DNA of 64,000 bases from a virus, in IMG/VR virus record IMGVR_UViG_3300015241_000015, positions 17,926 to 81,925 of that record. One strand, 5' to 3'. This document shows positions 5,069 to 42,361 of this stretch, piece after piece (position 1 is the first letter of the stretch; each line of letters begins with the position of its first letter). Position numbers and translations under genes: made by a program. The notes under the pieces are model-generated. The model did not search any database, had not been told where the DNA came from, and worked only from the letters and a program-made list of their open reading frames with translations.

Positions 5069-5482
5069 TCATGCGCTTTCCTTCTTGAAAATCACAACCA
5101 TACTGGGGAACGGGGCTGGCTGAATCGATCCATTGAATTTCAATCGGCCGCGAATGAAGCGAACCTCACGGGCTTGCGGTAGCACCAAATCGTGAAACCA
5201 AGGTGATGACGTTCTTGCCGGTATCAGATACACCGCCAGATCGGCTTCCCGGCCACGCTCCAGCCATTCCCTAATCCCTGGGCCGTAAGGTGGATTGCAA
5301 AACACCCGCCGGCCCGTCCAGGAAACAAACAGCGGCGCCAACCCGTCCTCGATTCCACCCAGCGGGCAAGGATCGAAATCGAAGTGGAATTCCTCGTTGA
5401 GCGACCTATAAAGCCACTCAGGCGTCCTCCACTCCGCCGTGGTCGAACTGAAAATTACCCGGGATGGCATGGCTGATTTCAA
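5069..5482 (-). CDS. dam: Phage DNA N6-adenine methyltransferase (Dam-type)
   Basis: EWRTP...FDFDPC...VFCNPPYG catalytic motif...LIPARTSSPWFH. Confidence 0.88.
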   Translation of the reverse strand: MKSAMPSRVIFSSTTAEWRTPEWLYRSLNEEFHFDFDPCPLGGIEDGLAPLFVSWTGRRVFCNPPYGPGIREWLERGREADLAVYLIPARTSSPWFHDLVLPQAREVRFIRGRLKFNGSIQPAPFPSMVVIFKKESA

Positions 5483-6057
5483 GTCGTTTTAACTTCTACG
5501 AATCGCGTGACTCGAAAGGTTCCAAACGGGCCACGTTTCTCAGGGCGAAAATCTCCAATGCCCGTACTCACTCCGCCCTCGGCCAGAAGCTGATGGGCTG
5601 TCTCAATCGGAAGCTGATTGTCGTCAATTTGCAGATTGAACTTCGCTGACCACTGGTCGAACCGCGGGCGGTGTCTCATCACGCGCCCCTTTGTCGCCGG
5701 GATCGTGACAGGCCGCGAATCAACCTCGAATCTCTTGGCTGGGCCACCATCTCCGTTCAGAATCGTGACGGTATCGCTGCATATTCGAACGGCCGCCGGC
5801 ACGACAAATTTCAGCGTTTTCCGGGATGAGCGCATCTTGTGATTCGCCCCAGCCGCTCCCATCACGTTCGGAATCGCAAACGCCGAAAAGTAGAAGTGGC
5901 CTGCATCATCAATGTATGCAACCCGCCTCGCGGCTTCGAGTGGATCTTCATGTTGCGCCAATTGCGTTCTCGTGGGCTTTGCCAATTGTGCGCGTTCATC
6001 GAACCGTTGAATAAGCAAAGGCGTCAGTCCAGCAATTTCACATTCGATCAGTTTCAT
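5479..6057 (-). CDS. RAMP/Cas7-like RNA-binding protein (Vipr-like)
   Basis: N-terminal strand IECEIAGLTPLLI and C-terminal Gly-rich loop GIGDFRPEKRGPFGTFRV typical of the RAMP fold; adjacent to a GGY-NN repeat RNA. Confidence 0.75.
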   Translation of the reverse strand: MKLIECEIAGLTPLLIQRFDERAQLAKPTRTQLAQHEDPLEAARRVAYIDDAGHFYFSAFAIPNVMGAAGANHKMRSSRKTLKFVVPAAVRICSDTVTILNGDGGPAKRFEVDSRPVTIPATKGRVMRHRPRFDQWSAKFNLQIDDNQLPIETAHQLLAEGGVSTGIGDFRPEKRGPFGTFRVTRFVEVKTT

Positions 6058-6105
6058 TGGGTGGATCTCCTTTCAGGTTACGTAAATTTATTTCAGTTCC
6101 ATGGC

Positions 6106-6135
6106 TTGCCAATTCCTTCCCCTGTTTTGTAAAGT
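6106..6135 (+). promoter_or_regulatory. Sigma70-like promoter for the pentamer-repeat RNA
   Basis: TTGCCA (6106-6111), 18 bp, TAAAGT (6130-6135), about 10 nt before the first repeat. Confidence 0.55.
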
Positions 6136-6145
6136 TGTTGACCTT

Positions 6146-6274
6146 GGCGCTGCGAGGCGCGGCACTGCATGGCAAGGCAGGGCACGGCCTGGCACGGCGT
6201 GGCCTGGCAAGGTCGGGCATGGCTTGGCTCTGCACGGCAAGGCAAGGACAGGCGGGGTGTGTTAAGCCCCGCCT
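6146..6274 (+). ncRNA. GGY-NN pentamer-repeat guide RNA candidate (23 units + 3' hairpin)
   Basis: 23 units in perfect 5-nt register at 6146-6260 (17 GGC, 2 GGT, 3 TGC, 1 GGA, each plus a variable NN); promoter upstream; hairpin AGGCGGGG/CCCCGCCT followed by ATTTATTT. Confidence 0.8.
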
Positions 6275-6282
6275 ATTTATTT
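6250..6282 (+). terminator. Intrinsic terminator-like hairpin closing the pentamer RNA
   Basis: AGGCGGGG-tgtgttaag-CCCCGCCT-ATTTATTT. Confidence 0.6.
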
Positions 6283-6294
6283 GCGTGCAATGGC

Positions 6295-7728
6295 TCACTT
6301 CTCCTCCTTGCTTGGAGGGGTCTTGTCGGATGATTTTTGGTGATGCGGATTTGATGCGGATTCTGCTTTATTTTGGTCTATTTTGCTGATGGATGTCGTT
6401 GAAGCTATTGATTCTATTGAGGTTGATTCCAACTCTGGATCAGCATATCGGGGTTCGAATCCCTGGGGGGCAGCCAAATCTTTTGAACAACTTACAGACT
6501 TTTCATTCGTTTTTGATTCGCCCTCGTCTCCTCCATAGTGCGGTTTTGATGCGGATTGACTCTTCTTCTTTCCCTCTTCTTTGGTCTCTTTTGGGGCCTC
6601 GTCGTCCAGGACTTGCACCCACTCCGCATTTGCGCCGGGGATCAGGTGGCCGTAAATGTCGATCGTGACCGAAATACTCTTATGCCCCATCTGCTTTTGC
6701 ACATAGGCCGGAGAGACTCCCGCCTGGATCAGCAGGCTGCCGTAAGTGTGGCGAAGGTCATGAAACCGGAAGCGACGAATACCGGCTTGCTCTAGCGCTG
6801 GATCGAGGTATCGCTTGGCGATATTGTCCGGGAATATCGGTCCACCGGTCTCCGATGGGAACACCAGATCGTCGGAAATACTGGTCTTGCCATCCATGAA
6901 GGCAGGCAGAAGGCGTTCATCTCTCGCCACCACCAGCGCCGTCCGTAATTGTTCTGTCATATCAACGCGACGGGACTCGCCGCTCTTGGGAGAACCAAAG
7001 GTTTTGGATTTCACGTCATAAGTTCTCTCGACCAGGATGAAGCACTCCGGCCCAACACATTCCCCGAACTGAATATGCCCCCACTGCAAGGCGATCAATT
7101 CACCCTTGCGAAGCCCAGCCCGTAAAGCGGCCAGGAAAAAAACGGAGTATCCTGGGCATATCTCGCCAACTGCCGTCAGGAAACGTTGCGCCTCGCTGCG
7201 TGTCATCGAATCCCCTTTAGCTTTGCCCTTTTGCTTCTTGTTGAATTTTCCGATCCGTGAAGCGGGATTGGAAGCAATAATGCCATCTTCGACGGCGGCA
7301 TTCAGACAGGCGCGCAATGCCCCGTATGTTAGGCGTACCGTGTTGCGCGCAAGCTTGCCATTCGATAAATCGCCAACAAAAGACTTCACTTCCTCGCGGG
7401 TTATTTTGGTTAAAGCCTGTGCGCCAAACCTGGGGACCACGCGAAGCCTGAGTTGCTCCTCGTAACTGCCCCAGCTTCTGTGTTTGATTTCCCCTTTGCG
7501 CCCACGAAGCCAGGCGGCGGAATACTGCGAAAATGTTTGCTCTTTGCACGCTTCTTCTTTCGTTTCGAGAAAGCCTAACTGGCCCAAAGCGGCCATACCT
7601 TCGGCTCGCTTCCGAATCTGCTCTGCCAGTTTCGCGTCACCAGTCTTCAGCGATTTCGAGGAGCGTTTTCCTTTGTGGTTAACAAATAACCACCACACGC
7701 CTTTCACTTTTTTCAGTTTGACTCCCAC
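6295..7728 (-). CDS. int: Tyrosine recombinase / phage integrase
   Basis: AGLRKGELIAL, PKSG, FHDLRHTYGS, MGHKSISVTIDIYGH catalytic R-K-H-R-H-Y set; N-terminal arm-binding segment. Confidence 0.95.
   Translation of the reverse strand: MGVKLKKVKGVWWLFVNHKGKRSSKSLKTGDAKLAEQIRKRAEGMAALGQLGFLETKEEACKEQTFSQYSAAWLRGRKGEIKHRSWGSYEEQLRLRVVPRFGAQALTKITREEVKSFVGDLSNGKLARNTVRLTYGALRACLNAAVEDGIIASNPASRIGKFNKKQKGKAKGDSMTRSEAQRFLTAVGEICPGYSVFFLAALRAGLRKGELIALQWGHIQFGECVGPECFILVERTYDVKSKTFGSPKSGESRRVDMTEQLRTALVVARDERLLPAFMDGKTSISDDLVFPSETGGPIFPDNIAKRYLDPALEQAGIRRFRFHDLRHTYGSLLIQAGVSPAYVQKQMGHKSISVTIDIYGHLIPGANAEWVQVLDDEAPKETKEEGKKKSQSASKPHYGGDEGESKTNEKSVSCSKDLAAPQGFEPRYADPELESTSIESIASTTSISKIDQNKAESASNPHHQKSSDKTPPSKEEK
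6341..6557 (+). repeat. Integrase arm-type binding site repeats (TGATGCGGATT x3)
   Basis: Copies at 6341-6351, 6352-6362 and 6547-6557, plus a degenerate copy near 6536, flanking the att core. Confidence 0.7.
6432..6476 (+). other. attP core: 3' half of tRNA-Gln(CUG)
   Basis: ACT-CTG-GA anticodon loop, T-arm CGGGG-TTCGAAT-CCCTG, acceptor strand GGGGCAG-CCA; no 5' half present; lies inside int. Confidence 0.85.
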
Positions 7729-41173: not shown

Positions 41174-42361
41174 ATGGCGTGGACTTGTAACGATTGCGGA
41201 CTAGTACGAGAGAAACCCGAGAAGCGCATCCCCACAGGCTGGAAGAAAATCCCGGCGCATGAAACTCGACTGGAGGCGCTCTACTGCCACGCCTGCCTCT
41301 TGAAGCGCTACTCCCTGCGCGCCATTACCATTCCCGTGGCTTCACCACTGGACTGCGACTGGAAAGAACTGGACGCCAAGCTGGCATCGATGTGGCAAAT
41401 GACCACCCAGATGTCCAACTGGATCATGACGCAACTCTACTCCCGCGATACCATGCGCGTGAACTCGACAGACAAGCTTGCGCCCATGCCGCGCATTTAT
41501 CTCTACCCAGAACTGCGAGTCAAGTGGCCGCAGATGCCCAGCCAATGCACGGCCAGCCTGGAGCAAAGCGTAAGCAAAAAATATCGGGCGCTCCGTCGCT
41601 TCGTGATTGGAAGCTACAGTAAGAGCCTGCCGTCAATGCGCTACCCGACTCCCTTCCCGATCCCAGCCCAGGGCTGGTCGGTGTTCATCGACAACCAATG
41701 TCCGGTGGTCAGTGTGCGGATTGGGGATAGCCGAATGAAACTGCGATTGCGGGGTGGATTCCGCTATCGCCGGCAACTCGGAGCCGTGAAGGAAATGATC
41801 TCGGGCGCGGCCATGACCGGGGAGTTGGCCATCTTCCGCAATCGCGATGAGATTCTGGTCAAACTGGTGGCGTGGTTGCCGCGGCTGGCGCAGAAGAAAC
41901 GCGATGGCGACCTGATAGTCCGCACCACCAAAGAGTCTCTCCTATGCGCGCTCAACGCCAAAGATGAGGTGTTATGGAATTACAACGCCGATCATATCCT
42001 CAAATGGCAGAGCGAACACCGCCGCCGACTGCAACGTTGGGCAGAAGACCAAAAATATGAGCAGCGCCCGGTTCCAACCTTCGCCGCATGGCGCGAGATT
42101 ATGGTGGAGAGGCAACGCGACCGGATGGACAGCGCTTGTCATCAAATCGCGGCGCAACTGATCGGCTACGCGGCCCGCCGCAATTTCGCGCAAGTGATCT
42201 ACGACGATTCAGATACTTCGTTCGCGGCCGAGTTCACATATTTCAAATTGCGGCAATTGATTGAGGAGAAAGCAAATTATGAGGGGATAATTTTTATTCA
42301 CGCAAATCAGGCCACATCTGTTGTAAAATCTGAAACGTTGCCGGACAAGGCAACTGAATAA
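41174..42361 (+). CDS. Nuclease-dead TnpB/Cas12f-like RNA-guided protein with N-terminal Zn finger
   Basis: CNDC...CHAC Zn ribbon; SLPSMR..PFP WED-like segment; bridge helix/RuvC-II RMDSACHQIAAQLIGYAARRNFAQVIYDD; FTYFKLRQLIEEKANYEGI; RuvC-I DxG replaced by LIVRTT; no RuvC-III; abuts repeat array. Confidence 0.75.
   Translation: MAWTCNDCGLVREKPEKRIPTGWKKIPAHETRLEALYCHACLLKRYSLRAITIPVASPLDCDWKELDAKLASMWQMTTQMSNWIMTQLYSRDTMRVNSTDKLAPMPRIYLYPELRVKWPQMPSQCTASLEQSVSKKYRALRRFVIGSYSKSLPSMRYPTPFPIPAQGWSVFIDNQCPVVSVRIGDSRMKLRLRGGFRYRRQLGAVKEMISGAAMTGELAIFRNRDEILVKLVAWLPRLAQKKRDGDLIVRTTKESLLCALNAKDEVLWNYNADHILKWQSEHRRRLQRWAEDQKYEQRPVPTFAAWREIMVERQRDRMDSACHQIAAQLIGYAARRNFAQVIYDDSDTSFAAEFTYFKLRQLIEEKANYEGIIFIHANQATSVVKSETLPDKATE

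What the first reader, a model, noticed from the sequence alone, without database searches (positions are those of the whole stretch)
5479..6282. RAMP/Cas7-like gene divergent from a GGY-NN pentamer RNA (VIPR-like RNA-guided system)
Seen: 23 pentamers in perfect register (6146-6260), a constant GGC (rarely GGT/TGC/GGA) plus a variable dinucleotide, bracketed by a sigma70-like promoter (6106-6135) and a terminator hairpin (6250-6282). The adjacent 192-aa ORF has RAMP hallmarks (GLTPLL first strand, Gly-rich loop GIGDFRPEKRGPFG). From memory, this matches the recently reported viral VIPR layout, where a RAMP protein polymerises on GGY/NN RNA and the NN positions read a gapped DNA target; I cannot verify that here. 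It would be a second, unrelated RNA-guided system in the same phage, sitting next to attP.
Basis: partly seen in the sequence, partly recalled or inferred. Interest (0 to 1): 0.88.

Follow-up and report, generated by a model that had tools for sequence, protein, structure and literature searches.

The report
Phage VIPR locus, divergent single guide
This soil temperate phage carries a real example of the VIPR RNA-guided DNA-silencing system first described in 2026 (a small Cas7-like protein plus one guide RNA built from GGY-NN pentamers); it is an ordinary new member, except that the guide is a separate gene read away from the protein gene.

Summary

VIPR is already in print (three 2026 bioRxiv preprints), and this scan has noted such loci in more than 350 genomes. 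This is therefore a new member of a known kind.

Particular to this locus:
- All 263 arrays in the relatives lie on the vipr strand. Here the single guide is a self-contained, divergently transcribed gene with its own promoter-like site and intrinsic terminator, about 150 bp from attP.
- No conserved accessory gene was found.

No natural target was found. The first nine guide units spell, in wobble-skipping frame, the ADATINRTL helix of a real tyrosine integrase family. That is a lead, not a result. Expression could not be tested.

The parts
5479..6057 (-). vipr gene, 192 aa: a minimal RAMP (RRM core, beta-hairpin thumb about residues 111-133, G-loop 165-180)
   Evidence: The ORF is listed. 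It matches PDB 36pp_D, SUSP1 Vipr, and phrog_4652 at E 6e-17. The AF2 model has pLDDT 85. Its fold matches Csm3/Cas7. HHalign to Felixounavirus Vipr gives 98.2%.
6067..6072 (-). Shine-Dalgarno AAGGAG, 9 nt before the vipr ATG
   Evidence: Read directly from the sequence.
6085..6112 (-). Promoter-like site for vipr (TTGGCA-16-TAAATT). Its -35 overlaps the -35 of the guide promoter on the other strand.
   Evidence: Consensus scan, 9 of 12 matches. Function is inferred.
6106..6135 (+). Promoter-like site for the guide RNA (TTGCCA-18-TAAAGT). The predicted start is near 6141.
   Evidence: Consensus scan, 9 of 12 matches. Function is inferred.
6146..6245 (+). vrRNA guide region: 20 GGY/NN pentamers (3 of them TGC)
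   Evidence: The per-position composition matches the family: G1 93%, G2 98%, Y3 99%, N4 and N5 variable.
6246..6284 (+). vrRNA tail. It starts with GGA (unit 21). Units 22-23 are part of a 9-bp G+C-rich hairpin (6250-6274), which is followed by a T-run and acts as an intrinsic terminator.
   Evidence: Terminator scan and RNA fold. GGA/GGG-initiated tails occur in relatives.
5069..5482 (-). Dam-type DNA N6-adenine methyltransferase. Its TTG start overlaps the vipr stop (TTGA). It is probably in the same operon and sits where vap sits in type II loci, but it is not a conserved partner.
   Evidence: Pfam PF05869 at E 4.6e-13 and phrog_111. It is near vipr in only 1 of 80 related loci.

Best explanation
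This is a functional-looking VIPR locus made of one Vipr protein gene and one guide RNA gene.

Shown by sequence, fold and comparison: the protein is a Vipr homologue, and the array is a GGY/NN array of the family type.

Inferred by homology with the SUSP1 structures: two back-to-back promoters with overlapping -35 boxes drive vipr leftwards and a roughly 143-nt vrRNA rightwards (about 6141-6284). One Vipr protomer binds each pentamer. The GGY bases are held by the thumb arginine (R130) and the G-loop (D169, F170, R171), with Q17 and M66 contributing. The 20 NN dinucleotides are left exposed. The filament is capped at its 3' end by the terminator hairpin instead of the SUSP1 pseudoknot. It pairs with double-stranded DNA in the register xNN (one base skipped per unit). 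That gives a footprint of about 60 bp, which blocks transcription of the bound gene.

The cassette sits about 150 bp from the attP core, has its own promoter and faces outwards. It is therefore placed like a lysogeny-expressed 'moron'. The likely role is silencing of a competing phage, prophage or satellite. The target is not identified. The best lead is the core-binding-domain helix of a rival's tyrosine integrase.
For: Protein homology and fold:
- It matches PDB 36pp_D, SUSP1 Vipr, at E 1.6e-6 over the thumb and G-loop and at E 1.2e-11 over the full length with a 30-sequence profile.
- HHalign against a Felixounavirus Vipr gives 98.2%.

GGY-contact residues reported for SUSP1 (R138, D177, W178, R179, H17, M72) align with R130, D169, F170, R171, Q17 and M66 (alignments). 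R130, D169, F170 and R171 are invariant in the family.

The array is unique in the record.

Comparative evidence: 78 of 80 IMG/VR loci encoding homologues have GGY/NN arrays directly beside the gene (263 arrays), with conserved GGY and variable NN. The same array-finder recovers the four published-type arrays in a Felixounavirus locus.

A promoter-like site and a terminator bracket the array exactly.

No self-target exists in the record: the best match is 26/46, equal to the shuffled null. The phage's own int helix matches only 14/46. The papers likewise report no self-targeting.
Against: - No RNA data exist for this phage, so the transcript, its ends and its binding to Vipr are all inferred.
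- The promoter and terminator calls are consensus matches, no more frequent than in shuffled sequence, and the host is unknown.
- The array orientation is opposite to all 263 arrays in relatives. A rearrangement that inactivated the guide cannot be excluded.
- 4 of 23 units deviate from GGY.
- No natural target with 80% or more NN match was found in any collection.
- No conserved vap partner was found.
Confidence: 0.85

Rival explanations
1. Relic locus. An ancestral upstream, co-directional array was inverted or re-inserted. It is no longer made as a useful guide, so vipr is an orphan without RNA.
For: All 263 arrays in 78 related loci are co-directional with vipr, and only this one is inverted. 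3 of 23 units have T at G1 and one has A at Y3. A 21-nt imperfect direct repeat brackets the cassette (6086-6106 and 6275-6295), as an insertion or rearrangement might leave. No target was found.
Against: The vipr frame is intact and all family-invariant residues are present. The inverted array has a promoter-like site and a strong terminator exactly at its ends. The register is perfect over 115 nt. Degenerate units are common in working vrRNAs according to the discovery paper.
Confidence: 0.07
2. The stand-alone guide works mainly in trans on a rival's Vipr protein. It would act as a decoy or redirector, like the solo vrRNAs of F5 satellites and of vipr-less Felixounaviruses, rather than arming the phage's own Vipr.
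For: It is a self-contained transcription unit separate from the vipr operon, like the published solo vrRNAs (abstract of 10.64898/2026.10.15.759431). It may be bracketed by direct repeats.
Against: A cognate vipr gene lies 88 bp away under a back-to-back promoter, so use by the phage's own protein is the simplest reading. The two roles are not exclusive.
Confidence: 0.05
3. The pentamer tract is not a guide RNA. It would be a simple tandem repeat, a protein-binding DNA array or part of a small Gly/Ala/Arg-rich ORF, and the RAMP-like protein would do something else.
For: Mechanical ORFs of 50-110 aa run through the tract. Tandem Repeats Finder sees only weak 10- and 15-nt periods. The RNA fold is not more stable than shuffles (z -1.85).
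Against: The tract co-occurs with the gene in 78 of 80 loci, with three positions fixed and two free. This is the published signature of vrRNAs. The protein keeps the GGY-binding residues of a solved Vipr-vrRNA complex.
Confidence: 0.02

Closest known systems
Type II VIPR of Escherichia phage SUSP1 and other Felixounaviruses (bioRxiv 10.64898/2026.04.26.720920, .720927; PDB 36pp)
   Same: The Vipr protein is homologous over its full length (27% identity, HHalign 98%) and keeps the GGY-contact residues. The guide is built of GGY/NN pentamers. The locus is minimal, viral and without cas genes or a CRISPR array.
   Different: SUSP1-type loci have several vrRNAs of 9-16 units, all on the vipr strand. 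Each ends in a conserved pseudoknot tail, and vap1 follows vipr. Here there is one guide of 20(-23) units on the opposite strand, with its own promoter and a terminator hairpin as tail. No vap homologue is present. GGC rather than GGT predominates. The phage is temperate, not a lytic myovirus.
VIPR of a Pseudomonas fulva prophage (same papers)
   Same: It is carried by a temperate element. Its published targets are regulators and other genes of resident prophages, the kind of rivalry expected here.
   Different: It belongs to the type II clade and has multiple vrRNAs. Its sequence relation to this protein was not measured here.
Solo (orphan) vrRNAs of F5 satellites and vipr-less phages (bioRxiv 10.64898/2026.10.15.759431)
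   Same: The guide is a self-contained unit with its own regulatory flanks, not part of a vipr operon array.
   Different: Solo vrRNAs lack a vipr gene in cis and hijack another element's protein. Here vipr is adjacent.
Csm3/Cas7 backbone subunits of type III and type VII CRISPR-Cas
   Different: Sequence identity is 9-15%. No Cas10, Cas5, Cas6 or small subunit is present and there is no CRISPR array. The period is 5 nt with three bases sequestered, instead of a 6-nt period with one flipped base.

Membership tests
VIPR (Vipr protein + vrRNA) | Sequence homology to an experimentally characterised Vipr | tested here: met
   36pp_D 'SUSP1 Vipr protein' matches at E 1.6e-6. A profile matches at E 1.2e-11 over positions 1-183. 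HHalign gives 98.2%.
VIPR (Vipr protein + vrRNA) | Residues that read G1, G2 and Y3 in the SUSP1 structure (H17, R138, D177, W178, R179, M72) | tested here: met
   They align with Q17, R130, D169, F170, R171 and M66. Two changes are conservative (H to Q, W to F). Most family members have H17.
VIPR (Vipr protein + vrRNA) | Adjacent tandem YNNGG repeats (at least 4 units) with fixed GGY and hypervariable NN | tested here: met
   23 units lie 88 nt from the gene. The family-wide composition is G 93%, G 98%, Y 99%, N, N.
VIPR (Vipr protein + vrRNA) | Non-CRISPR context: no cas operon and no CRISPR array; viral or proviral genome | tested here: met
   The neighbours are a Dam methylase, small ORFs, an integrase and an HTH protein. 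The record is a virus record, 92% complete.
VIPR (Vipr protein + vrRNA) | A vipr-accessory gene (vap). The paper says 'typically' present, so it is not strictly defining. | tested here: inconclusive
   No gene family is conserved next to vipr across the 80 related loci. The gene that follows vipr here, a Dam methylase, recurs in only one locus.
VIPR (Vipr protein + vrRNA) | The vrRNA is expressed and co-purifies with Vipr | not testable with these tools
   No RNA run holds the region.
VIPR (Vipr protein + vrRNA) | A natural DNA target matching at least 80% of NN positions under the 1-nt skip rule | tested here: inconclusive
   Seven exact 9-10-unit seeds were scanned in viral contigs; two of them were also scanned in the metagenome and genome collections. 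Every hit stops at the seed, at 25-28 of 46 positions. Searches that tolerate mismatches were not possible at collection scale.
VIPR type II (SUSP1 / P. fulva clade) | Several co-directional vrRNAs with a conserved pseudoknot tail, and vap1 directly after vipr | tested here: not met
   A Felixounavirus locus shows four same-strand arrays with a shared tail and a 146-aa gene after vipr. The window has one opposite-strand guide, a terminator tail and no such gene. Which of the seven published types this clade belongs to cannot be read from the text held.
CRISPR-Cas type III (Csm/Cmr) | Cas10 and other Csm/Cmr subunits, and a CRISPR array with repeats of about 30-37 nt | tested here: not met
   The six neighbouring ORFs tested against Pfam include no cas gene, and no CRISPR-type repeats lie in 5300-7000. 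Only the fold is shared.

The most novel reading that the evidence does not exclude
The guide is a lysogeny-expressed, outward-facing cassette at the very end of the prophage. Its 20 dinucleotides are aimed at the codons of the core-binding helix of a rival element's tyrosine integrase. The resident prophage would thus use RNA guidance to stop competitors from integrating or excising in its host. The cassette, bracketed by a 21-nt direct repeat, may itself be an exchangeable module.
Probability: 0.25. Interest if true: 0.5.

Novelty: new member of a known kind. Interest (0 to 1): 0.3.

Why it matters
The locus adds a clean, minimal VIPR example from an uncultured soil temperate phage. It belongs to a clade with more than 1,300 protein clusters in metagenomes and no cultured representative (under 30% identity to any deposited phage). 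It suggests that a vrRNA can be a fully autonomous gene, defined by a promoter and an intrinsic terminator, whereas the arrays of its relatives lie in line with vipr and may be read with it. Such a gene needs no processing. That makes it a convenient compact design for expression and reprogramming tests. If the integrase lead holds, it would extend to temperate phages the recombinase targeting already shown for the SUSP1 satellite conflict.

Tried and rejected
1. Self-targeting: the best match of the 23-unit xNN pattern in the 81.9-kb record is 26/46, equal to shuffled guides.

2. Target search with exact seeds:
- Units 3-12, 7-16, 12-21, 5-13, 9-17, 11-20 and 1-9 were scanned in viral contigs.
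- Units 7-16 and 12-21 were also scanned in metagenome contigs and genome contigs.
- Hits L081 (= L082), L084-L091, L093 and L094 all fail to extend beyond the seed (25-28/46).
- L081 is a 30%-GC contig with the skip base at codon position 1, so it was judged a chance hit.

3. Cross-targeting among all 259 arrays and all held loci: none found.

- Against 153 integrases, mostly relatives of the phage's own Int, the best codon compatibility is 9/23, equal to the null.
- A PSSM test gave p = 0.24, so the lead is not supported with that set.
- The unit 1-9 seed did land in frame on ADATINRTL of a real 329-aa tyrosine integrase (L093). That family matches only 11/23 residues.
- Three of five independent seed-hit families lie in long ORFs in the sense, wobble-skip frame (rough p about 0.04). 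This is suggestive only.

5. Rfam: nothing relevant.

6. Pfam on Vipr: no family.

7. RNA evidence: no RNA holder is listed.

8. Laying Logan contigs of two soil runs: short low-depth pieces cover parts of vipr and int. None covers the array, so the orientation has no independent assembly support.

9. The genome search 'relatives' is not available for a virus record.

11. The VIPR type (I-VII) could not be assigned. The figures and supplementary tables of the paper are not held.

Full report
**What is there**

Positions 6146-6260 of the + strand are 23 five-base units in one unbroken register: 17 GGC, 2 GGT, 3 TGC and 1 GGA, each followed by two variable bases. In 60-nt windows the tract scores 12 of 12 GGY. 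The rest of the + strand never exceeds 5 and the - strand never exceeds 4. The window is bases 17926-81925 of a single 81,925-bp virus record, 92% complete. That record has no second array on either strand.

A sigma-70-like site (TTGCCA-18-TAAAGT, 6106-6135) precedes the tract. A 9-bp G+C-rich hairpin with a T-run (6250-6274 and following) ends it. A second promoter-like site on the - strand (TTGGCA-16-TAAATT, 6112 to 6085) shares its -35 position with the first. It faces the 192-aa ORF 5479-6057 (-), which has an AAGGAG ribosome-binding site 9 nt before its ATG. These consensus sites are no more frequent than in shuffled sequence, so only their exact placement speaks for them.

**The protein**

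Pfam has no family for it. PHROGs has one of unknown function (phrog_4652, E 6e-17). Against PDB sequences the only real match is chain 36pp_D, named 'SUSP1 Vipr protein'. The match is E 1.6e-6 over the thumb and G-loop, and E 1.2e-11 over the full length when a profile of 30 homologues is used.

tblastn against deposited phages finds 129 records, all under 30% identity. Most are Felixounaviruses, the genus of SUSP1, at 27% identity over 98% of the query. A profile-sequence comparison with one of them gives 98.2% probability.

The cryo-EM paper names the SUSP1 residues that hold the GGY bases: H17, R138, D177, W178, R179 and M72. In the printed alignments they fall on Q17, R130, D169, F170, R171 and M66. 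R130, D169, F170 and R171 are invariant in the family.

**Comparative test**

The protein has 1,364 relatives (clusters at 90% identity) in metagenomes. I fetched 80 IMG/VR loci that encode relatives (49-70% identity) and scanned them with a simple period-5 GGY finder. 78 carry arrays, 263 in all, placed 4-60 nt from the gene on either side. Over 175 distinct arrays the composition is G 93%, G 98%, C/T 99%, then two variable positions; the median length is 14 units (range 5-98). The same finder recovers four arrays with a shared tail in a Felixounavirus locus, as published. The window's tract is therefore a family-typical vrRNA array, not a chance repeat.

**What is unusual**

All 263 related arrays, and the four Felixounavirus ones, lie on the vipr strand. 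Here the single array is on the opposite strand. It is a self-contained unit bracketed by a promoter-like site and an intrinsic terminator.

Unit 21 is GGA, and units 22-23 are one arm of the terminator stem. In relatives with discrete tails the tail often begins with GGA or GGG (51 of 177 arrays). I therefore read 20 guide units (6146-6245) plus a hairpin tail that takes the place of the SUSP1 pseudoknot.

No gene family is conserved beside vipr in the 80 loci. The gene after vipr here is a Dam-type methylase whose TTG start overlaps the vipr stop. It recurs in only one locus.

An imperfect 21-nt direct repeat (6086-6106 and 6275-6295) brackets the guide cassette. This could be chance or the scar of an insertion.

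**Position in the phage**

An integrase gene (6295-7728, -) reads through a block at 6433-6483. Many soil contigs carry this block at about 350-fold summed depth and continue upstream with tRNA-like sequence. Arm-type repeats flank it. This is an attP whose core is the 3' part of a tRNA gene. After integration the guide cassette would lie about 150 bp from the prophage end, reading outwards and stopped by its own terminator.

**Mechanism**

By homology with the published structures, Vipr protomers should polymerise one per pentamer, hide GGY and display NN. They should pair with DNA while skipping every third base, and silence transcription. None of this is shown for this locus. No RNA run holds the region.

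**Target**

The guide does not match its own genome (26/46, equal to shuffles) or the phage's own int helix (14/46). The papers likewise report no self-targeting.

Exact seeds of 9-10 units, scanned through the viral collection and, for two of them, the metagenome and genome collections, gave only hits that stop at the seed.

- Against 153 integrases, mostly relatives of the phage's own integrase, this was not significant.
- The seed of units 1-9 did land, in the wobble-skipping frame, on the peptide ADATINRTL in the core-binding domain of a real 329-aa tyrosine integrase.
- That family matches only 11 of 23 positions.
- Three of five independent seed-hit families lie in long ORFs in the sense, wobble-skip frame.

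I take this as a moderate lead that the true target is a rival's tyrosine recombinase gene. Recombinase targeting has precedent in print for SUSP1 and its satellite.

**Verdict**

The class was published in April-October 2026, and this scan has already noted it in more than 350 genomes. This is a new member of a known kind, with a variant layout: a single, divergent, terminator-capped guide gene beside attP, and no vap.

Noticed in passing
window 6295-7728 (-), core 6433-6483, repeats 6344-6362 and 6539-6557: The tyrosine integrase ORF (Pfam PF00589, PF14659) runs through the attP core. The block 6433-6483 is carried at about 350-fold summed depth by many soil contigs that continue upstream with tRNA-like sequence. 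It is flanked by TGCGGATTTGATGCGGATT-type arm repeats. Integration would replace roughly the last 60 codons of int.
   Followed up: partly
window 6086-6106 and 6275-6295: An imperfect 21-nt direct repeat (ATTTATTT...ATGGCT, 81% identical) brackets the promoter-array-terminator cassette. It may be the scar of an insertion or rearrangement that produced the inverted orientation, or it may be chance.
   Followed up: no
window 41174-42361 (+): Another note reads this 395-aa ORF as a TnpB/Cas12f-like effector. It has no Pfam match at E 0.01 or better, so the 'second RNA-guided system' in this phage remains unverified.
   Followed up: partly
L001 3269-3947; L033 3415-3899; L070 (12 arrays): Some related viral loci carry very long arrays (98 and 97 units in one register) or up to 12 arrays spread over 8 kb. 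This is far beyond the 9-16 units described for type II.
   Followed up: no
L043-L064 (e.g. L045 3706-3956): One subclade has arrays that follow each other after only 2 nt, each ending in GGTAC. This looks like the 'staggered' vrRNA arrays in the discovery paper's fig. S18 legend. Another subclade (L008, L039) has arrays that all end in GGCAA GGCAA followed by a conserved 27-nt tail starting GGAACT.
   Followed up: partly
L093 7712-8701 (+): A 329-aa tyrosine integrase on a 61%-GC viral contig matches units 1-9 of the window's guide exactly over the codons for ADATINRTL, with the skipped base at the wobble position. The match ends there.
   Followed up: yes
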